A stretch of 35,491 nucleotides of DNA from a virus (taxonomy: Duplodnaviria > Heunggongvirae > Uroviricota > Caudoviricetes): positions 1 through 35,491 of IMG/VR virus record IMGVR_UViG_2671180778_000014; one strand, given 5' to 3'. Below, in pieces: positions 6,166-23,479 of the stretch (position 1 is its first letter; every line of letters starts with the position of its first letter). The notes beneath the pieces were generated by a model. The model was not told where the DNA came from, did no database searches, and worked only from the letters and a program-made list of their open reading frames with translations. The translations under genes were made by a program, and so were the position numbers.

Positions 6166-9100
6166 TTAAGAAACAGTAATACCCGTAGTGGCTTTTTTAG
6201 TTACCATTACAGTTAAATCACTGATCCATGTGCTAGGCGTCCAGTTGTTGATTGCGCTTGATTGCACTTCAAAGGTCAAGGTCACAGCACCTTTACCCGC
6301 TGGCATATCAATAACACCTGAGTAAAGACCAGTATTACCGCCATACGCCCTATTATACAACTCTGACCCATTCTTACGAACAATCAGGCGACATGTGTCG
6401 TAATAGGTATTATTGTTCGACCCTTCACGCGCTCGCAATCCACCAAAACTAATTGCCGGAATAACGATTTGACGATCGAACTTGTGATCATCTTCAACGC
6501 GAACAGTGACCGTACCCTGTGGATAGCCAGCATAACCATTATCAACGTTAACATCACGGTGCGGGAACTTACGACCAATCACCTTAACGAAATCACCCTT
6601 AACCTGAGTAGCTTCAAGCATACCCTTAATAACACAGCTAGAGTTAATCGTGACGTTGTTCAGAGTACCAGAATCAGCCGTGATATTACCTTTAACGGTA
6701 GCGTTCATGAACGTAGCATTACCGTTCTTGTTGATATGCCATCCGGTCGATCCGTTCCAGTTGGAAGACTGGATATAGTTACCGATTTTAGCGTTATCAA
6801 TTGCGCCATTTACAATCTTGGCGTTAGTGATTGCCCCGTCCTGAATCTTCGCGCTGTTAATTGCAGCATTGCCGATCTTAGCGGTAGTAATTGCCGCATC
6901 ATTAATCTGGGCTGTACCAATTGCAGCATTACGAATCATCGCATTATCGAGATAAACCTTGTTACCTTCGATACCAAACGGGCAAACATCGGTCCCATTC
7001 TGCGGAGCTACAGCAATTTTATCAGCCGTAAAGATGATTTTAGTCGGTTGTGCCGGATCGTTGGTTGCGCTCATGTGAATACCAGCCACACGACCATCTG
7101 CATTAACTGCCAGATTGTATTTGCTGTTAATGGTTCCTTTCAAAGCATCGATTTTTACATCTGCTTCCTGATTCACACCAGCAATCTTGCCATCCATTTC
7201 TACCCGAACTTGATCAATCTTACTTGCGCTTGCTGCCTCACTGGTTGCAATTGCTTGTTTCAGGGTTGTAGCGGAGGCGCTAACTTCTTTGGTGATATCG
7301 CCTTTCAGTTCAGCTTTAACCTGATCAATCTTAGTTGAACTTGCCTTATCACCAGAAGCAATCAGACTCTTTAAGGTATCGGCTGAGGCTTGAACAGTTT
7401 TACCCGTCTCGGTAGTGATTTGCTTATGCATTGCATCAATTTTAGCATCGGCATTAGCGCCAGCTTGCTTAATAGCATCCGCGATAGTTTCATCTAAGCG
7501 ATCTTGTAAACCGATCAGGTCTTCCAGTGCTTCTTTGTCCTGATCGTCCCAACTAATCGTAGACTTCATTTGCATGAAATACGGTTCAGACCAAACAGCA
7601 TCATCCATACCGAAAATATCGTAGTGAGCACCACGGATATAATAATCACCGTCAGCAATATCAAAGGAAGTATGGCTAACACTATTCGTGCTTACTGCCC
7701 TTGCATCTGAGAAAGTGTTATCGGTTGCATACTGGATGATTGACCCTGCATAGTCATGTTCTACGTCATCCGCCCAGCTAACAAACGCAGTATTAAAGCC
7801 ACCACGCGCACTAAAACCTTTCATTGGCTTATGCTGTGGGTTGATAGCCACTAAACGCGCTGGGGCGCTCTCTGAGTTGTTATAGCCCTTAGCCGATACT
7901 TCTACCGTAAGTTGTCGCGAAAGGCCGTTAAACTGGTTCATATCAAGTGTATAAGTCCATGATTCAGGATCGCGGGTACGGTACTGAATAGACTTACCAG
8001 CCTTGTTAGTCACCTTGATAATGTATGCTTCAAACAGGTCACTAAACTTGTTAGTTTCACCGTTGATCATCACATCTAATTGTTGCTGATTTTCCCATTC
8101 GATAATCAGATCATTACCTTCGAAAGTTCCTGGCGTGCTACCCTGATTTTTGATTCGAATAACCGGAGTCGGTAATTCATAGGTAACAGTAGGATTCTGG
8201 TTAATCAGTTCTACCCAATCAGATCTCGCGATGATACCGAAAGCACAAACTCGGTAATCATAAGAACGATCTTTTGCCAGTGCACTGACACTGAAAATTT
8301 GCTGTGAAGTCTGTCCCAGCTTAATCCAGTTAGGCGATCCACTAACACGGTAATCAATCTGGAAGCCGTAGCGGTTAAAATCTTCCGGCGCATCCCATGT
8401 TAAAGTAACGTTCTTACCATAGATTGTTTCACCAGTTGCCTTAATTCTGAAATTAGTAGGCTTCTGTACTGTCATTGAATCCGGTAAACCACTTGGTCGG
8501 TTATCTGGGTTAGCCGCATAGTTCAGGTCAGTATAAACCTGAGAATTATATTCTGTGGCGGTGATCGTCATCATCCCAGCAATACCAGAATCAATCGAGC
8601 GGTCAATTGCAGTAATACGCCAAAGTGAATTATTCAGTTTTAATTCATCATAGGTTACGCTGATAACATCCCACACCTCGGCAGTGAATGCGTCAGTAGT
8701 CATAAAGCTGATAACCTGAGTGATACGAGATTTATTTCGTTCAATGCTCGCAAGTTTATCAATCTGGGCTTTAGACTTAACAAAACGATATTCGATATCC
8801 TTAGCGATAATTCGACCATCTTGACGAATAGTAGCATCGTTTTCAGCATCAGCCGGATAACGTAGCATTTGCTCTGAATAGTCAATAGATGGTTCTTGAT
8901 ACATCGCGTTAATGGTATTGAAATAACCGTTAGTGCCACCTGTTTTCAGTGATACCTTACCCATCATGATATTGTCTTCATTGAAGGTATGCTTAACAAT
9001 ATCAGGAGCATCCAGTTTCAGGGTAATTCTTCCGAAGGATTCGAACATCACCCCGCCGAAAGTCTGCATAAGGCTAGTCAAGTTCTCTTTAAAGCTGGCG

Positions 9101-19000: not shown

Positions 19001-19668
19001 TTGTCGGAAACAGTCTTTTCGATCGCTGTCTTGTTAGCTGCAACCGTGCTAGTTAAGCTAGAAATTTTGTTATCTGCATCGGTTTTATTTGCAGTAACAG
19101 TTTTAGTTAAGTTGCTAACGTTGGTGTTAGTGGTATTAACCTTGTTGTTAATCGCGGTGTTATTGTCAGTGACCGTTTTCGTTAAAGCTGCATGTTTGCT
19201 ATCTGCATCAGATTTGTTTGCGGCAACGGTTCTTTCAATTGCGGTCTTATTCGCAGATACGGTCCCCGTAAGGTTATTGATCTTAGTGTCGGCATCGGTT
19301 TTATTTTCCGTAACTGTCTGGGTTAAGTTACTAACAGTGGTGTTGGTAGCATCAATGCGCTTATTGGTTGCGGTGTCTTTAGTGGTAATAGTCTGATTCA
19401 GTTCAGCTTTAGCACTAGCCAGATTATTAGCGGCCTCTTGTTTGTTGGAAGCAATAACACGGTCAGTGCTAGTTTTATTCTGGTCTACTTTCGTGTTAAG
19501 TTCAGCGTGTTTTTCTGGAGAAACAGAGATTTGAACTACTGCGTTATTTTTATCTTTGGTATACAGAACGTGATCAGCAAGGTTAATAGCCAATTCACCC
19601 TGTGATAATTGTTCCGGCGTTGGTTTTTTACCAGCCGTTTGTGTGCGTTTAAATTGGATTGATCGCAT
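16045..19668 (-). CDS. L-shaped / side tail fibre with C-terminal intramolecular chaperone (peptidase S74-like) domain
   Basis: 1207 aa; N-terminal repetitive TxNKTDADxKIxxLTxTVxANKTAIE segments; C-terminal SDSRLKINKEEL ... GIIAQDLEEVLPEAV matches the auto-cleaving chaperone domain of endosialidases and T5-type L-shaped fibres; KPTPGEIGAYTKAEVD fibre repeat. Confidence 0.8.
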   Translation of the reverse strand: MRSIQFKRTQTAGKKPTPEQLSQGELAINLADHVLYTKDKNNAVVQISVSPEKHAELNTKVDQNKTSTDRVIASNKQEAANNLASAKAELNQTITTKDTATNKRIDATNTTVSNLTQTVTENKTDADTKINNLTGTVSANKTAIERTVAANKSDADSKHAALTKTVTDNNTAINNKVNTTNTNVSNLTKTVTANKTDADNKISSLTSTVAANKTAIEKTVSDNKKDADTKITNLTGTVNSNHTAINNKVDQNKSSTDAAIAAANKRIDGIEGSNDALYIKKNTNTKHGGYLLSKTANYLEDQTSRDLNYFGAFRTNGQDGLLDLTLNVPHSAGKAHGRGFTFRYASGGSRVETYGFDREGQKNFSYKMYHEGDKPTPGEIGAYTKAEVDKMFVKNVVMSVPNSSENVSAYFKLATATIPQNGRSVFFRIHGGNGYNVTAYDQVDVVEILLRSGNDRPKGLNVIAYRRNTNKDFEVFAVNTSGDNYDIYVKYQRYTDNVIVEYGKSVYVSLTVYDTPEATLIKPSVGVIGGRNVTLFNTENKRGVLSFDDNTQNSYDIVHLSNDRGTGRKYIRKFRSNYNEMIWHETVQGSTYRLATGSTDAQEILTVESSSSIAGTHKGNILSGRMLLNGGSNVITLRRPAGQSNHIAFQDNRTGNITRQGWFGYGNADTNVFEWYSDVGGTSIRHHIDGQIELATGNTKRVYTNAQFISMNSDAYRMIYGKYGAFWRNDGVKVYLLSTAEDDKLGGWNGNRPFIYDMNTGKVTLGGDGNEGALILERDSRAARFSNNVFLEKGLLTFSAGGNQSMDSFTINHWGNSNANRYNVLQFQDTSGTHFTTERNGSGGLLAHFRGDLTAEGKITWGKNTSASSFNIRAWGAGPGNEGRQQVFECADESGWHWYTQRAGGPGTELIEFAVNGTLRPKAIHAGGNITLNGADIEFKRTGNKHIWFRDPNGLELGLMYSDDAGVIRFRGQKQAQTWKLADKMIHLESGSVGGSDKGLIRGNVSGGSWSSWRDRASGLQVDCPQSKDSAHNIWKATHWGQYHIAAMGVHVPSGTIGNALVRLHVHDTNFDFNAAGDFTAGRNGSFNDVYIRSDSRLKINKEELQDGALEKVNSLKVYTYDKVKSLSDDTVIKREVGIIAQDLEEVLPEAVGIQSTEDPENPEAIKTISNSAVNALIIKAIQEMDAKYQAKIEALTKEIAELKATK

Positions 19669-19744: not shown

Positions 19745-20578
19745 TCAATACTCCCCGAAATCGATCCGGTCAGTCTTAGCTACTGCGCCAATTTCGCTAG
19801 GTGTCGGTTTCTCATTGGTGGAATATACCTTGATCCATTCAGAGCGACCGTTTTCCTGAATATTTCGGACGCGTAAACGTGGTGCGCCGGAAGTATTACA
19901 GGTTAATTGCCATGCGCCATGCTCATTGGCTTGAAGGTGAATTAATGCTGTGTCGGTTGAATATGGATTACCGCTAGCAGTTCCCTTGTAAGTTACGAAA
20001 CGGTTTCCGGCTAATGCCTCGCTATCAATTGGACCCGTGAATGGATTTACACCAGCACCCAAACCAAAATCACCCTGACGTAAGATCCGGCCTTCGGTAG
20101 CAATACCCCTTGCCAAAATCCCGCCATCTGGTTCAAGTTTAAATTCCAGTGTTACAGCTTTGTTATCTGCGCCACGGGTTTTATGTGATGTGACGTAAGC
20201 ATCGAATATACAAAAGTACCCTGTGTTAGCAGCACTATAGCCAGAGTTCACAACATAGAACATACGGAAGCGTAAAGGTGTTTTATCCTCTACCGCTTTC
20301 ATCAACATTGCTTGATGTTCATCGTCAAGAACACGGTTTAATGTGAGTGTTGTCGGTTCCAGTCTACGATAACCAGCAAGTTTCCCCGTAGCGTCCTGAT
20401 CGTACTCTTCCAGAGTTTCTATCTCTGTGGATTCGGTTAGCGTAGGGAATGCTGCGATGTTCTCCATAGAACTAAAGCTAGGATCGAAAAAGTCGACCTG
20501 ATTGTCTATCTGGTTAGAGATCGACACTTCAACATGTGATCCAGTGAAAATATCTAAGTTATCTTGTGTAATATTCAT
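19745..20578 (-). CDS. tail/neck structural protein with C-terminal fibre-type repeat
   Basis: 277 aa; C-terminal NEKPTPSEIGAVAKTD shares the KPTPxEIGA motif with the adjacent fibre; RBS TAAGGGGT. Confidence 0.4.
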   Translation of the reverse strand: MNITQDNLDIFTGSHVEVSISNQIDNQVDFFDPSFSSMENIAAFPTLTESTEIETLEEYDQDATGKLAGYRRLEPTTLTLNRVLDDEHQAMLMKAVEDKTPLRFRMFYVVNSGYSAANTGYFCIFDAYVTSHKTRGADNKAVTLEFKLEPDGGILARGIATEGRILRQGDFGLGAGVNPFTGPIDSEALAGNRFVTYKGTASGNPYSTDTALIHLQANEHGAWQLTCNTSGAPRLRVRNIQENGRSEWIKVYSTNEKPTPSEIGAVAKTDRIDFGEY

Positions 20579-21314: not shown

Positions 21315-21341
21315 AAAAAAGCCCCACCGTTAGGCAGGGCT
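21315..21341 (-). terminator. rho-independent terminator (conserved family)
   Basis: minus-strand AGCCCTGCC-taac-GGTGGGGCT followed by TTTTTTG; near-identical to the 15362 copy. Confidence 0.6.
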
Positions 21342-21349
21342 AATTATTA

Positions 21350-21475
21350 TTCTTTAGTTTTACGCTGTTTTTTAGCTGTGGCTTTCGCCTTAACCGTCTG
21401 GGATTCTTCTTCCGGTTCAGGAATCAGATTTTCTTCCCCCAAATCGGGGGAAGGTTCAGATGGTTCTACAGGAGT
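21350..21475 (-). other. in-frame post-TGA extension of the capsid gene (putative readthrough segment)
   Basis: 42 sense codons after the TGA at 21476-21478, no ATG; translates TPVEPSEPSPDLGEENLIPEPEEESQTVKAKATAKKQRKTKE; stop TAA at 21347-21349. Confidence 0.45.
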
Positions 21476-23479
21476 TCATTCAGCGGAGATGTGAAGAACT
21501 TTCAGCGCTTCCGGCTGGGTTACAACGTAATCCAGATCTACCCAGATACGCGGAACGATAGCAGACTGTGCGCGGTAGGTAGTGTCATCAATGTCAAGTT
21601 CCAGACCACCCCATTCACCGATGGTAATAGCGTCGAACGATCCCAGAACGATGTGGTCTACCGGAATAACACCAGAAGTAACTACGTCGTAACCAGCCAG
21701 TTTACCGTTTTCGATGATATAACCGGAAACACCGTTATCTTTCAGGGTAGATTCCAGTTCAGCAGCAGTTGCACCGCTCATTGCAAACTTGATCGCCTGA
21801 GCAGGAACGCCAGCGTCGGTCAGTTTAGCAATTTCTTTCAGGAAGTCTTTATAAGAGAAAGCAGCTTTCTTCTCTACGCGACCAGCATCTACCAGTTGTT
21901 TAATCACACCAGCCGGACCACGAGCATTTTCTTTGTCGGACAGAATCAGTTGTTCCAGTTTGATGCGAACAGCCTGGTTAATGTGATCAGTGATCAGGGT
22001 AGCGATGCCGGGTACGGTTTTGAGGCTAGCTCTGCTGATCGGATTCCCACCAGCAAACGTCTTAGGAGCCATTTTCACGTTTGCAAATTCAGCTTTACCT
22101 TCCGGCGCAGCACCGTTTTCATCAACGAAGCCGAAAGATTCAACGCTGGAAGCGGTCATTTTAGGAATAGCGGTCGGCGAAGTCAGACCAGACAGGACTT
22201 TCACACCAAGACGACCCAGAACGGATTCCGGCAACAGCATCGCTACATAGGAATCATTCAGCAGTTTTTCGTCGGTTACAGCGGTCAGAGTAGCTTTGGT
22301 GTTACCATCAGCAGCAGCACGCATAGCAGCAGTCGGAACGAATACAGAGCCACCGCGAGCAGCACGACCACGCTGCATAGTTGCAGTAGCAGCCATTGCA
22401 GAAAACTCGGCTTCGTGAGCACCCAGAGCTTCACCATCTACCAGAGAGCGAATTACGTTGTTCAGGTCAAAAGTTTTTTCCATTTTAGAGTCCTTAATTT
22501 GTTGTTCGTTATTACGTTGAGCATTGGTAATGTTATTTAGTGCCTTAGTGCGGAATGCTTCCGGCGTCATGTCTTTAACTGCCAATGCGCGTTTTAATTC
22601 TTCGTCGTCAATATTTAGTTCCCGCGCGATCTCGCGAATTTCTAATTCGTCTTCTTCGGAACGTTCAGCCACTTCTTCGATTTTTTCTTCTTCAATCGGA
22701 GCGGCTTCACGTTCTTCTTTTACTTCTTCTGTTTCCCGAACAGTTGAACTATCATCATCAACACTTTCAGGATGTTCAGCGTCTTTTCCGTCTTCGAGAT
22801 TTTCATTTTCTTCATTCTCTTCAACTTGGCGCTCTTGAGTTTCTTCTACTTCCGATTCTTTATTTTCTTCTACCGGAGTTTCTTCAACCTGAGCGGCTTC
22901 TTGTTCTTTGATTTCTTCGATTTGTTCTTTAGTCATATCGCGTTTAGCCTCCAAATTAACTGTGATAGTATTTAGAGAGCGATTTAAACCGACCGTATCG
23001 TCAGCAGGAACGGTAACGAAACTTAATTCGTATGGTGCCCACTTAGTAACAATCAATTGTCCTTTGGTGTAGTCGATGTGATATTCTTTAATGTCATAAC
23101 CGACAGAAATTTTTTCCATCGTACCTTCAATGACTTTATTGCGAATATCATTAGCCAAAGTGCCATGCTTAGAGAATTTAACCAGAGCACGACCTACGTT
23201 ATCCGCATCGATTCGAGCGTTACAAACGACACCAATATGATTATCGAAATTATGATTGAACAGCAACGGAGCGTTATTATTCAGACGAGACAGATCAACC
23301 GCTTCCGGTGTATGTACCAGAATTTCATCTAGTACCACCATCTCTTGATTTTGCTCATCCCAGAATTGGCGCTGATACGGCTGTTCACTGGAGAAAGCAA
23401 TTTCAAATTCGTATTGATCGTTATGCCCTTCGTTAATAACTCCACCGTAACCGTTAAGATCGCGGCGAAATTTAAGCAT
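21476..23479 (-). CDS. prohead protease - scaffold - major capsid protein fusion (HK97-fold)
   Basis: N-terminal PLLFNHNFDNHIGVV is prohead protease-like; central highly acidic coiled-coil region (scaffold/delta-like); C-terminal ~300 aa resemble an HK97-fold capsid protein; candidate internal RBS plus ATG at 22483. Confidence 0.8.
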   Translation of the reverse strand: MLKFRRDLNGYGGVINEGHNDQYEFEIAFSSEQPYQRQFWDEQNQEMVVLDEILVHTPEAVDLSRLNNNAPLLFNHNFDNHIGVVCNARIDADNVGRALVKFSKHGTLANDIRNKVIEGTMEKISVGYDIKEYHIDYTKGQLIVTKWAPYELSFVTVPADDTVGLNRSLNTITVNLEAKRDMTKEQIEEIKEQEAAQVEETPVEENKESEVEETQERQVEENEENENLEDGKDAEHPESVDDDSSTVRETEEVKEEREAAPIEEEKIEEVAERSEEDELEIREIARELNIDDEELKRALAVKDMTPEAFRTKALNNITNAQRNNEQQIKDSKMEKTFDLNNVIRSLVDGEALGAHEAEFSAMAATATMQRGRAARGGSVFVPTAAMRAAADGNTKATLTAVTDEKLLNDSYVAMLLPESVLGRLGVKVLSGLTSPTAIPKMTASSVESFGFVDENGAAPEGKAEFANVKMAPKTFAGGNPISRASLKTVPGIATLITDHINQAVRIKLEQLILSDKENARGPAGVIKQLVDAGRVEKKAAFSYKDFLKEIAKLTDAGVPAQAIKFAMSGATAAELESTLKDNGVSGYIIENGKLAGYDVVTSGVIPVDHIVLGSFDAITIGEWGGLELDIDDTTYRAQSAIVPRIWVDLDYVVTQPEALKVLHISAE

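What the first reader, a model, noticed from the sequence alone, without database searches (positions are those of the whole stretch)
21347..21478. Capsid gene shows the same TGA plus in-frame extension module as the tail tube gene
The 667-aa capsid ORF ends GAA TGA ACT and continues in frame for 42 codons (TPVEPSEPSPDLGEENLIPEPEEESQTVKAKATAKKQRKTKE). Both extensions share a Pro/Glu linker and a KAKATAK basic motif (a 14-nt identical core GCGAAAGCCACAGC) but are otherwise diverged at nucleotide level, and both are followed by near-identical terminators. Two independent structural genes carrying the same recoding-like module is hard to explain by chance.
Basis: partly seen in the sequence, partly recalled or inferred. 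Interest (0 to 1): 0.85.

Follow-up and report, generated by a model that had tools for sequence, protein, structure and literature searches.

The report
Shared leaky-stop extension on capsid, tube
In a family of E. coli prophages the genes for the two most abundant virion proteins (head shell and tail tube) both end in the leakiest stop signal (TGA-A), followed by the same portable, always in-frame, RNA-structured 28-45-codon tail; this looks like programmed stop-codon readthrough, which is not documented for tailed DNA phages, but no protein evidence exists yet.

Summary
On the minus strand, the 667-aa protease-scaffold-capsid gene ends GAA TGA ACT. It stays open for 42 codons, to TAA TAA and a strong terminator. 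The 157-aa lambda-like tail tube gene does the same, with 39 codons.

I recovered 70 distinct copies (121 occurrences) from E. coli prophages and metagenomes. Every copy has TGA, A at +4, a stop-to-core distance divisible by 3 (six length classes) and no in-frame stop. The adjacent terminator loop shows 1-nt indels. Codon usage fits real genes only in frame 0. Tube alleles and distant relatives without the extension all end in TAA directly before a terminator. The module also sits on a capsid gene only 39% identical, and capsid and tube copies exchange segments.

Amino-acid-level selection is weak: pN/pS is 0.70 in the capsid extension, much the same in all three frames. The extension RNA is unusually structured (z about -3.7), with several compensatory changes.

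The best reading (about 0.6) is programmed UGA readthrough by tRNA-Trp. It would give a minor fraction of head and tube subunits an acidic/proline linker and a basic tip, with RNA folding as a second constraint. The main rival (about 0.2) is an untranslated structured 3' UTR.

The parts
21476..23479 (-). Gene for the prohead protease - acidic scaffold-like linker - HK97-fold major capsid protein fusion (667 aa), ending in TGA
   Evidence: ORF. Pfam Peptidase_S78 (res 40-162) and Phage_capsid (res 409-663). PDB 8gta major capsid protein, E 1e-23. PGAP annotates relatives as 'phage major capsid protein'.
21475..21478 (-). Leaky stop signal UGA-A of the capsid gene (TGA at 21478-21476, +4 A at 21475)
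   Evidence: TGA and +4 A are invariant in 121/121 occurrences (70 unique records). A control gene in the same genomes flips between TGA and TAA.
21350..21475 (-). Capsid extension: 42 in-frame codons, an acidic/Pro-rich linker followed by the basic tail KAKATAKKQRKTKE
   Evidence: Always open, with length classes of 28/33/42/43/44/45 codons. Codon-usage LLR is 0.29 per codon in frame 0, against -0.18 to 0.05 in the other five frames.
21433..21453 (-). Stable hairpin inside the capsid extension: CUUCCCCC-GAUUU-GGGGGAAG (encodes PSPDLGEE)
   Evidence: The stem nucleotides are invariant in all copies that contain it (8 pairs, 100% paired).
21380..21389 (-). Core mini-hairpin GGC-GAAA-GCC (GNRA tetraloop), inside the shared 14-nt core that encodes AKA
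   Evidence: formed in the MFE structure of 20/21 capsid and 11/14 tube variants. Compensatory variant GGA-GAAA-UCC in L095. G-U variant in L014.
21344..21349 (-). Tandem stop TAA TAA ending the capsid extension, 2 nt before the terminator stem
   Evidence: The extension ends in TAA in 33 of 35 unique capsid records and in TGA TAA in 2.
21315..21341 (-). Intrinsic terminator after the capsid module
   Evidence: 9 pairs, 6 GC, T-run. Its loop length varies 15/16/17/18 nt between copies, i.e. non-3n indels.
15515..15988 (-). Tail tube gene (157 aa, lambda gpV-N-like), ending in TGA
   Evidence: Pfam Phage_TTP_11 and Phage_TTP_12, both just under the curated cut-offs. PGAP 'phage tail tube protein'.
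15514..15517 (-). Leaky stop signal UGA-A of the tube gene
15398..15514 (-). Tube extension: 39 in-frame codons, TNEELPEPEPLPEHEAVVIPEVEEV followed by TAKATAKRGRKAKN
   Evidence: Length classes of 36/39/41 codons. pN/pS is 0.42 in frame 0, against 0.84 and 1.21 in the other frames. LLR is 0.26 in frame 0. The closing stem AACUUC/GAAGUU covaries with AACAAC/GUUGUU.
15389..15397 (-). Stops ending the tube extension: TAA, one codon, then TAA
15362..15389 (-). Intrinsic terminator after the tube module
   Evidence: 10 pairs, 6 GC, T-run; identical in all 21 unique tube records.

Best explanation
This is a portable 'leaky-stop cassette'. Its parts, in order, are:
- UGA-A;
- a 10-nt unpaired spacer;
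- a folded stretch of 28-45 codons that is always in frame;
- one or two strong stops;
- an intrinsic terminator.
The cassette is attached to the 3' ends of the major capsid gene and the tail tube gene of an E. coli prophage family.

Proposed mechanism:
- Most ribosomes terminate at UGA and make the normal protein.
- A small fraction decode UGA with a near-cognate tRNA, in E. coli tRNA-Trp, and continue in frame.
- Literature values are 0.1-1% for ordinary UGA and about 5% at the Qbeta coat UGA.
- The result would be a few head subunits and a few tube subunits per virion carrying a flexible acidic/proline-rich linker tipped with a Lys/Arg-rich tail.

Proposed role of the RNA folding: because the extension is naked RNA on most transcripts, it is also selected to fold into hairpins. 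These may protect the 3' end, and the structure that begins 10 nt after the UGA may additionally favour readthrough.

Status of each step:
- Shown here: the anatomy, its conservation, frame preservation, codon usage and RNA covariation.
- Inferred: that readthrough happens, that Trp is inserted, and how often.
- Speculative: that the tails face outward and act as low-copy adhesive decorations, by analogy with recoded Ig-like extensions on other phages.
For: (1) Invariance. In 121 occurrences (70 distinct records) from IMG/VR prophages, E. coli genomes and metagenomes, the stop is TGA 121/121 and the +4 base is A 121/121. The distance from the stop to the conserved core is 0 mod 3 in 121/121, across six length classes (39/60/69/78/84/87 nt). 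No copy has an in-frame stop.

(2) Indels. The core-to-terminator distance is 47/50/53/56 nt, always in steps of 3. The adjacent non-coding terminator loop varies 15/16/17/18 nt. At least 8 indel events are all multiples of 3; (1/3)^8 is about 1.5e-4 (inference).

(3) Codon usage. Frame 0 of all nine length variants scores 0.10-0.32 per codon. That lies inside the distribution for real genes of this phage (0.244 +/- 0.129). It is above every stop-free off-frame window (-0.22 +/- 0.10) and above the other five frames of the same DNA.

(4) Stop choice.
- This phage uses TAA for 31 of 36 genes, and only the capsid and tube genes have TGA-A.
- Every tube allele or distant capsid/tube homologue without an extension ends in TAA directly before a terminator.
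- A neighbouring gene flips TGA<->TAA within the same genomes.
- About 75% of synonymous sites vary in the same sequence set.

(5) Stop avoidance. About 3.8 in-frame stops are expected from at least 97 substitution events if the region were unconstrained. None is seen (P about 0.02).

(6) Portability. The same cassette sits on a capsid gene only 38.6% identical. Mosaics of capsid-type and tube-type segments exist.

(7) Strong stops. The extension ends with tandem or strong stops.

(8) Relatives. Sister capsid alleles carry similar A/K/E/P-rich tails fused in frame with no stop, such as ...EKGTPAEAKAAKQ and ...KKGTEAKAAK. Such tails are therefore translated and tolerated at this C-terminus.

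(9) No alternative route. There is no conserved start codon inside the extension, no tRNA gene in the window and no Rfam/SECIS match.

(10) Literature and background.
- UGA readthrough in E. coli is a competition between Trp-tRNA-Trp and RF2, at 1e-3 to 1e-2 (PMC10570021).
- The Qbeta coat UGA gives about 5% A1 protein (PMC7026636).
- A 3' adenine favouring UGA leakiness (Engelberg-Kulka 1981, listed in the references of PMC10570021) is from my own knowledge.
Against: - No protein, ribosome-profiling or reporter data exist.
- The capsid extension has no amino-acid-level purifying selection: pN/pS is 0.70 in frame 0, against 0.77 and 0.72 in the other frames. The tube signal is modest at 0.42.
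- Synonymous divergence in the extension (0.17-0.20) is lower than in the gene upstream (0.34-0.38). Several amino-acid changes are the two halves of RNA compensatory pairs. RNA structure therefore explains part of the conservation, including the 14-nt core.
- The K-rich tail could partly reflect the A-rich tract common upstream of terminators.
- The stop-avoidance test is only P about 0.02, and the copies are phylogenetically related. The 121/121 counts reflect few independent lineages.
- No homologue has a sense codon in place of the TGA.
- Natural E. coli isolates terminate at UGA efficiently, so the yield could be very low.
- A hairpin-stimulated readthrough signal is not known in bacteria.
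Confidence: 0.6

Rival explanations
1. Untranslated structured 3' UTR. In this reading the 90-135 nt between the stop and the terminator is an RNA element: an mRNA 3'-end stabiliser, a processing site or a 3'-UTR-derived small RNA. It would travel with its terminator and boost or regulate the two most highly expressed late genes. Its open reading frame would be incidental.
For: - The extensions fold far better than shuffles (z -3.8 and -3.6). Only 2.4% of 254 control windows from the same operon reach -3.4.
- Architecture is conserved: a domain closed by an AAC...GUU stem, a GGC-GAAA-GCC mini-hairpin, a further hairpin and then the terminator.
- Compensatory changes occur in four helices. On alignment A2, 82% of cells are paired against 32-51% when the partners are slid, and 4 pairs change on both sides against 0-1.
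- Synonymous sites are more conserved in the extension than in the gene upstream.
- pN/pS is uninformative in the capsid copy.
- The extension peptide is absent from 5.8 billion predicted proteins.
Against: - RNA structure alone does not predict indels only in multiples of 3 while the adjacent terminator loop shows 1-nt indels.
- It does not predict zero in-frame stops in 70 distinct copies.
- It does not predict gene-like codon usage in frame 0 only.
- It does not predict an invariant TGA with +4 A where the phage otherwise prefers TAA.
- It does not predict tandem stops at the end of the extension.
- Relatives without the extension do well with a terminator directly after TAA.
Confidence: 0.2
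2. Translated, but regulatory. In this reading readthrough does occur, but the peptide is irrelevant. A ribosome that passes the UGA runs to the TAA TAA, which lies 2-5 nt from the terminator stem, and masks the 5' arm of the hairpin. That would couple leaky termination of translation to readthrough of the transcription terminator into the downstream head-completion and tail genes.
For: - The stops of the extension lie 2 nt (capsid) or 5 nt (tube) from the terminator stem in every copy.
- Frame, openness and codon usage are conserved while the amino-acid sequence is not.
- The terminators are strong and the downstream genes must still be expressed.
Against: - Relatives lacking the cassette already have their normal stop 8-17 nt from an equally strong terminator.
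- The effect would require the leading ribosome to be the one that reads through.
- The conserved acidic-then-basic layout, and the similar tails fused in frame in sister alleles, suggest a role for the protein.
- No tool here can test this mechanism.
Confidence: 0.1
3. Fossil of a truncated tail. In this reading an ancestral C-terminal tail fused in frame was cut off by a nonsense mutation, and the downstream sequence has simply not yet decayed.
For: Sister alleles have comparable tails fused in frame. The capsid extension shows weak or no amino-acid-level selection.
Against: - All copies share the TGA, yet since then they have accumulated at least 97 substitutions and at least 8 indels without a single frameshift or stop.
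- The cassette has been transferred intact to a 39%-identical capsid gene and to the tube gene.
- The TGA itself is never converted to the preferred TAA.
Confidence: 0.04
4. Another decoding route: selenocysteine insertion at UGA, a reassigned TGA codon or phage suppressor tRNA, or an independently initiated small ORF.
For: UGA is the selenocysteine codon, and hairpins follow it at about the distance of the E. coli SECIS (own knowledge). The extensions are open reading frames.
Against: - No Rfam family matches at E <= 1.
- The hairpin sequences and loops differ between variants (GAUUU, GAAA, a 10-nt loop). That does not fit the specific loop that SelB recognises.
- The 35.5-kb window has no tRNA gene.
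- TGA ends three other genes normally, and the long ORFs contain no internal TGA.
- No ATG/GTG/TTG with a Shine-Dalgarno sequence is conserved inside the extension. The 28-codon class has essentially no start codon.
Confidence: 0.03

Closest known systems
Coliphage Qbeta (Allolevivirus) minor coat protein A1, made by readthrough of the coat-gene UGA
   Same: An E. coli phage whose major capsid gene ends in a leaky UGA that is read in frame, by tRNA-Trp, in a few percent of ribosomes. This gives a C-terminally extended minor structural protein (PMC7026636, Table 1: 5%). From memory, the Qbeta context is also UGA followed by A.
   Different: Qbeta is an ssRNA phage with a 196-aa folded, essential extension. 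Here we have a dsDNA tailed prophage with a 28-45-aa low-complexity tail. The same cassette is used on two genes and is bundled with a transcription terminator and a folded RNA. No experimental proof exists here.
Listeria phages PSA, A118 and A500 (also Lactobacillus phage A2): recoded long forms of both the major capsid protein and the major tail protein
   Same: Both the head shell gene and the tail tube gene of one phage yield a short major form and a C-terminally extended minor form by translational recoding at the 3' end of the gene (PMC5009743, section 9).
   Different: Those phages use +1 or -1 ribosomal frameshifting at slippery or CCC_UGA sites, and the two genes carry different extensions. 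Here the extension is in the zero frame behind UGA, so no slippery site is needed, and the two genes carry the same homologous cassette.
T3/T7 capsid 10A/10B, SPP1 tube gp17.1/gp17.1*, and Ig-like C-terminal domains on lambda gpV and other phages
   Same: Optional or sub-stoichiometric C-terminal appendages on the major capsid and tail tube proteins, sometimes in frame and sometimes recoded, moved around by recombination (PMC9022992 section 6; PMC5009743). The tube protein here is lambda-gpV-N-like. Relatives carry in-frame C-terminal appendages on the tube (L039 251 aa, L042 Gly/Ser tail).
   Different: The appendage here is not an Ig/FN3 domain. It is a roughly 40-aa stretch of low-complexity acidic and then basic composition, which suggests disorder. 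Access is by stop-codon readthrough, not by frameshift.
Structure-assisted readthrough signals of eukaryotic viruses (e.g. MuLV gag-pol UAG plus a pseudoknot 8 nt downstream)
   Same: A leaky stop followed, after a short spacer (10 nt here), by a conserved RNA structure (PMC7026636 section 4).
   Different: No such stimulator has been shown for bacterial ribosomes. The structures here are simple hairpins that differ between variants and may only protect the RNA.
Intrinsic terminators after phage major capsid and tube genes, with structured 3' UTRs
   Same: A GC-rich hairpin plus U-tract directly after the two most expressed late genes, also present in all relatives.
   Different: Relatives place the terminator 5-20 nt after a TAA stop. 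Here 84-135 nt of frame-preserved, codon-adapted sequence lies in between.

Membership tests
Programmed stop-codon readthrough (Qbeta A1 type) | An ORF continues in the same frame beyond a single stop codon | tested here: met
   42 and 39 open codons in the window; open in 121/121 occurrences.
Programmed stop-codon readthrough (Qbeta A1 type) | The stop codon identity and its leaky context are conserved | tested here: met
   TGA 121/121 and +4 A 121/121. Homologues without the extension use TAA. A control gene flips between TGA and TAA.
Programmed stop-codon readthrough (Qbeta A1 type) | The extension evolves as coding sequence | tested here: inconclusive
   Met for 3n-only indels, absence of stops and frame-0 codon usage. 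Not met for pN/pS in the capsid copy (0.70, similar in all frames) and weak in the tube copy (0.42).
Programmed stop-codon readthrough (Qbeta A1 type) | The extended protein is detected, at a frequency above background | not testable with these tools
   Needs MS, western blot, a reporter or ribosome profiling.
Frameshift-derived long forms of capsid and tail proteins (PSA/A118/A500, A2, T3/T7 10B, SPP1 gp17.1*) | The extension lies in the +1 or -1 frame and is reached at a slippery site | tested here: not met
   The extension is in frame 0. Frames +1 and +2 contain 1-7 stops each.
Frameshift-derived long forms of capsid and tail proteins (PSA/A118/A500, A2, T3/T7 10B, SPP1 gp17.1*) | Both the major capsid and the major tail genes of one phage encode a short and a long form | tested here: inconclusive
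   The sequence potential is present in both genes. The products were not observed.
Ig-like/FN3 decoration domains on phage structural proteins | The extension is a folded Ig-like domain of about 80-100 aa | tested here: not met
   The extension is 28-45 aa and low-complexity. No predicted protein in the 5.8-billion-sequence database shares words with it.
Selenocysteine recoding | A SECIS hairpin with a conserved SelB-binding loop directly 3' of the UGA | tested here: not met
   No Rfam hit at E <= 1. The hairpin sequences and loops differ between variants.
Stop-codon reassignment or phage suppressor tRNA | In-frame TGA inside many genes and/or a suppressor tRNA gene | tested here: not met
   No tRNA gene. 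Genes are intact under table 11, and TGA terminates three other genes.
Structured 3' UTR / terminator-leader RNA element | Conserved secondary structure supported by compensatory changes | tested here: met
Structured 3' UTR / terminator-leader RNA element | No reading-frame constraint (non-coding) | tested here: not met
   3n-only indels, no stops, and codon usage specific to frame 0.

The most novel reading that the evidence does not exclude
A mobile, self-contained recoding cassette for bacteria. It would consist of UGA-A plus a downstream folded RNA that actively raises readthrough on E. coli ribosomes. Recombination would paste it, together with its own terminator, onto any abundant virion gene. 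The virion would then display a few copies of an acidic-spacer/basic-tip peptide on both head and tail. If true, this would be the first programmed readthrough in a tailed dsDNA phage and the first RNA-structure-assisted readthrough signal in bacteria.
Probability: 0.25. Interest if true: 0.88.

Novelty: new variant of a known kind. Interest (0 to 1): 0.72.

Why it matters
- Recoding at the 3' ends of phage capsid and tail genes is known only as frameshifting. In-frame stop-codon readthrough among phages is a textbook feature of the RNA phage Qbeta. My literature searches found no report for tailed phages.
- A conserved UGA-readthrough cassette in E. coli prophages would add a new recoding class to Caudoviricetes.
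- It would provide a natural, compact sequence for tuning sub-stoichiometric display on heads and tails, which is useful for phage display and engineering.
- It would offer a genetically tractable system, in E. coli, to ask whether mRNA structure can modulate termination at UGA in bacteria.
- It shows that annotation pipelines miss such products. PGAP ends both genes at the TGA, and the peptide is absent from 5.8 billion predicted proteins.
- The cassette occurs in about 1% of complete E. coli genomes: the capsid gene in 55 of 5426 and the tube module in 19-33.

Tried and rejected
- Close phage relatives: megablast of the capsid region against 50,697 deposited phage genomes found none. The nearest, DCP80, has 40% amino-acid identity, ends in TAA and has no zero-frame extension.
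- A sense codon at the TGA: I searched for homologues that read through it. None of 120 capsid homologues covers the extension. The extension alone matches no predicted protein.
- Broken copies: a frame-agnostic DNA pattern (core plus terminator only) was run against IMG/VR and JGI/ENA metagenomes to look for them. All 18 new metagenomic copies and all viral copies are intact. The other pattern hits are chance matches in unrelated DNA.
- pN/pS: it does not discriminate frames in the capsid extension, so I do not claim amino-acid-level selection there.
- RNAalifold on the mixed capsid alignment recovers only the invariant helices. The class-specific helices had to be specified by hand, so the counts lean towards the structure.
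- Rfam and tRNA searches were negative.
- PDB sequence search: nothing for the tube protein and only a distant capsid (8gta). I therefore did not model whether the C-termini face outward; that rests on analogy.
- The primary papers on UGA context in E. coli (PMC326727, PMC398062) are not held. Those points are from memory.
- An independent small ORF, selenocysteine and codon reassignment were all rejected; see the rival explanations.
Full report
CHECKING THE OBSERVATION

The genes lie on the minus strand. The 667-aa ORF 23479..21476 ends GAA TGA ACT. The same frame stays open for 42 codons (21475..21350), reading TPVEPSEPSPDLGEENLIPEPEEESQTVKAKATAKKQRKTKE. It ends at TAA TAA, followed 2 nt later by a strong hairpin plus T-run.

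The 157-aa ORF 15988..15515 ends GGA TGA ACT and stays open for 39 codons, reading TNEELPEPEPLPEHEAVVIPEVEEVTAKATAKRGRKAKN. It ends at TAA, followed by a near-identical terminator.

The 14-nt core GCGAAAGCCACAGC occurs exactly twice, with none expected by chance.

Pfam identifies the first protein as a prohead-protease/HK97-type capsid fusion. It identifies the second, just below the curated cut-offs, as a lambda-like tail tube protein.

Within this one window the openness alone is not compelling, because several other genes have 24-42 open codons after their stop.

WHERE IT COMES FROM

- No deposited phage is close. The best match, DCP80, has 40% protein identity.
- The region is a prophage of E. 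coli. It is present in 55 of 5426 complete genomes at 80-98% nucleotide identity.
- PGAP annotates both genes as ending at the TGA and leaves the extension unannotated.
- IMG/VR gave 32 related prophage loci.

COMPARATIVE TEST

I collected copies in several ways:
- through the capsid protein;
- through a DNA pattern made only of the core and the terminator stem, which is blind to the frame and to the stop codon, run against IMG/VR and then against metagenomes;
- from E. coli genomes.

I then located the end of the upstream long ORF in any frame. This gave 121 occurrences, which collapse to 70 distinct records. In every occurrence:
- the stop is TGA;
- the next base is A;
- the distance from the stop to the core is a multiple of 3, across six length classes (39, 60, 69, 78, 84 and 87 nt);
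- there is no in-frame stop (details).

The core-to-terminator distance takes the values 47/50/53/56 nt. The loop of the adjacent terminator takes 15/16/17/18 nt. One-nucleotide indels therefore do occur right next door, but never inside the extension.

Extension lengths are 28/33/42/43/44/45 codons on the capsid gene and 36/39/41 on the tube gene.

STOP-CODON CHOICE

- This phage ends 31 of 36 genes with TAA. Only the capsid and tube genes have TGA-A.
- Some family members carry a diverged tube allele without an extension. It ends in TAA, 8 nt before a terminator.
- Capsid and tube genes of more distant relatives (53%, 48%, 42% and 38% identity, plus DCP80) all end in TAA directly before a terminator.
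- A neighbouring 277-aa gene switches between TGA and TAA among the same genomes.
- About three quarters of synonymous sites in the upstream 100 codons vary in the same sequence set.

The invariance of TGA-A is therefore not due to lack of divergence.

PORTABILITY

The cassette also follows a capsid gene that is only 38.6% identical to the one in the window (L055, L065, L073, L074). Mosaics exist:
- capsid-type front halves joined to tube-type basic tails;
- a 28-codon capsid variant whose start resembles the tube extension;
- a capsid copy with the tube-type terminator loop.

The unit that moves is TGA-A plus extension plus stop(s) plus terminator. Because the TGA belongs to the unit, being 'in frame with the host gene' is not independent evidence. 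The evidence is the later maintenance of the frame.

IS IT CODING?

In favour:
- 3n-only indels. At least 8 events are all multiples of 3; (1/3)^8 is about 1.5e-4 (my estimate).
- No stops, where about 3.8 are expected from at least 97 substitutions (P about 0.02).
- Codon usage. With a codon table from 20 genes of this phage, frame 0 of all nine variants scores 0.10-0.32 per codon. Real genes score 0.244 +/- 0.129 and stop-free off-frame windows score -0.22 +/- 0.10. The other five frames of the same DNA score -0.36 to 0.15.

Against:
- pN/pS in the capsid extension is 0.70, and 0.77 and 0.72 in the shifted frames.
- In the tube extension it is 0.42, against 0.84 and 1.21.

The frame is therefore conserved, but the amino-acid sequence is only weakly conserved, as expected for a low-complexity, probably disordered linker. 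No start codon is conserved inside the extension.

A SECOND CONSTRAINT: RNA STRUCTURE

The extensions fold with z = -3.8 and -3.6. Among 254 control windows of the same operon (mean -0.41, sd 1.19), only 2.4% reach -3.4. Three other variants give z = -2.2 to -5.5.

The architecture recurs across variants:
- about 10 unpaired nucleotides after the UGA;
- a domain closed by AAC.../...GUU;
- the mini-hairpin GGC-GAAA-GCC, which is the 'core';
- a further hairpin in the basic-tail region;
- the terminator.

Compensatory changes support these helices:
- AACUUC/GAAGUU becomes AACAAC/GUUGUU;
- GGC/GCC becomes GGA/UCC in E. coli STEC1575;
- U-A becomes C-G in the 28-codon hairpin, and GGUGG/CCACC becomes GGCGG/CCGCC.

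On alignment A2, 82% of cells pair, against 32-51% for slid partners. Some of these paired changes alter amino acids. RNA folding therefore explains part of the conservation, the low synonymous rate and the uninformative pN/pS. Rfam has no match.

RELATIVES SUGGEST THE TAIL IS A PROTEIN FEATURE

- In a sister capsid lineage, some alleles simply continue in frame past ...DDRLFLYEK into GTPAEAKAAKQ, GTPAEVKAALKASA or GEAEAGETRKAK.
- More distant capsids end ...KKGTEAKAAK and ...GAEAKSKA.
- Other sister alleles stop earlier and carry an A/K-rich tail in the -1 frame (see Noticed in passing).
- Tube proteins of relatives carry in-frame C-terminal additions (251 aa in L039; a Gly/Ser tail in L042).

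MECHANISM PROPOSED

Most ribosomes terminate at UGA. A minority insert an amino acid, probably Trp via tRNA-Trp, and continue to the strong stops.

In E. coli, UGA readthrough is a competition between Trp-tRNA-Trp and RF2. It runs at 1e-3 to 1e-2 in ordinary contexts (PMC10570021) and at about 5% at the Qbeta coat UGA (PMC7026636). That a 3' A makes UGA leakier is from my own knowledge (Engelberg-Kulka 1981; Poole et al. 1995; neither paper is held).

If the capsid is T=7 (an inference from genome size), this would give roughly one to twenty extended subunits per head, and a few per tail.

Because the extension is untranslated on most mRNAs, folding may protect it. The structure that starts 10 nt after the UGA may additionally favour readthrough, but that is speculative. 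An outward-facing, adhesive role for the acidic-linker/basic-tip tails is an analogy with recoded Ig-like decorations (PMC5009743, PMC9022992). It was not tested.

RIVALS

- Untranslated structured 3' UTR or sRNA (0.2). It fits the RNA evidence but not the frame evidence.
- Translated, but acting by masking the terminator (0.1).
- Undecayed fossil of a truncated tail (0.04).
- Selenocysteine, codon reassignment or a separate small ORF (0.03 together). These are rejected.

COMPARISON WITH KNOWN SYSTEMS

It works like Qbeta A1: UGA readthrough of a coat gene in E. coli. It also resembles the dual capsid-plus-tail recoding of Listeria phages PSA, A118 and A500 and Lactobacillus phage A2, and T3/T7 10B and SPP1 gp17.1*.

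It is not a member of the frameshift class, because the extension is in frame 0 (tested). It is not an Ig-like decoration, because it is too short and has no homologue.

My literature searches found no report of programmed readthrough in a tailed phage.

VERDICT

The feature is real, conserved and previously unannotated. Programmed UGA readthrough is the best-supported explanation (about 0.6), but it is unproven at the protein level. I rate it a new variant of a known kind, with interest 0.72.

Noticed in passing
L037/L097 10936-11010, L105, L102, L107, L108, L001 (DCP80) 7786-7882: In a sister capsid lineage (about 40% identity) the capsid gene ends in TAA (TGA in L108). The -1 frame is open from the stop to just before the terminator. 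It encodes A/K/R-rich tails: LTDTGAQAAPVRKPRALKVTK, LINTGEQASPAKVKKPRALKVK, LRKAKAKAKAKAETAE and VIPTGREEVSVKSGRKPKTDN. Between lineages these show 3n indels and third-position differences. Several lineages have GAA AAG (an 'A AAG' shifty site) a few codons before the stop, followed by a hairpin with a compensatory change (AGGAGCA/UGCUCCU versus AGGAGAA/UUCUCCU). This may be a -1 frameshift version of the same idea. L105 lacks the A AAG site, so it is unresolved.
   Followed up: partly
L098-L101, L104 (capsid 3' ends), L035, L036: Other alleles of the same capsid family carry a comparable 8-12-aa Ala/Lys/Glu/Pro tail fused directly in frame, such as ...EKGTPAEAKAAKQ and ...KKGTEAKAAK. The same kind of tail therefore appears constitutive, behind TGA, or in the -1 frame in different relatives.
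   Followed up: partly
window 14489-14500 (minus strand): The two tail assembly chaperone ORFs (14797..14489, Pfam TAC; 14459..14118, Pfam Phage_tail_T) overlap such that a -1 shift at GUA AAG UAA ('A AAG' immediately before the stop) would give the usual G-T fusion. This phage therefore seems to use canonical -1 frameshifting as well.
   Followed up: partly
window 19745-20578 (minus strand): The 277-aa protein upstream of the long fibre gene is hit by the tube protein in tblastn (E < 1e-10), so it has a tube-like domain. Its stop codon flips between TGA-T and TAA-G among family members; I used this as an internal control. A terminator follows it at 19718-19699.
   Followed up: partly
window 14840-19668 (minus strand): Unusual gene order. 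A 1207-aa T4 gp34-like fibre with an endosialidase-chaperone domain sits between the head-completion genes and the tube gene. A 168-aa protein with a T4 gp38-N adhesin domain sits immediately after the tube gene. This is inside an otherwise lambda-like (GpA terminase, Phage_portal_2) siphovirus-type module.
   Followed up: no
window 21479-23479 (minus strand), residues about 180-330: The capsid protein is a single-chain fusion of an S78 prohead protease, a roughly 150-aa extremely Glu-rich segment (presumably a scaffold or delta domain) and the HK97-fold shell domain.
   Followed up: no
L039 16932-17687; L042 16977-17489: Tube proteins of Citrobacter and Atlantibacter relatives carry in-frame C-terminal additions. 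L039 is 251 aa and ends ...TECTVTVTAA, possibly an Ig-like domain. L042 ends in a GGGSGGGSGG-type tail. The tube C-terminus appears to be a hot spot for appendages in this group.
   Followed up: no
L001 (PQ671644.1, Escherichia phage DCP80): This 141-kb record is classified as Straboviridae/Tevenvirinae. Its first 17 kb nevertheless encode a lambda-like terminase and a protease-capsid fusion related to this prophage family. The record may be chimeric or misclassified.
   Followed up: no
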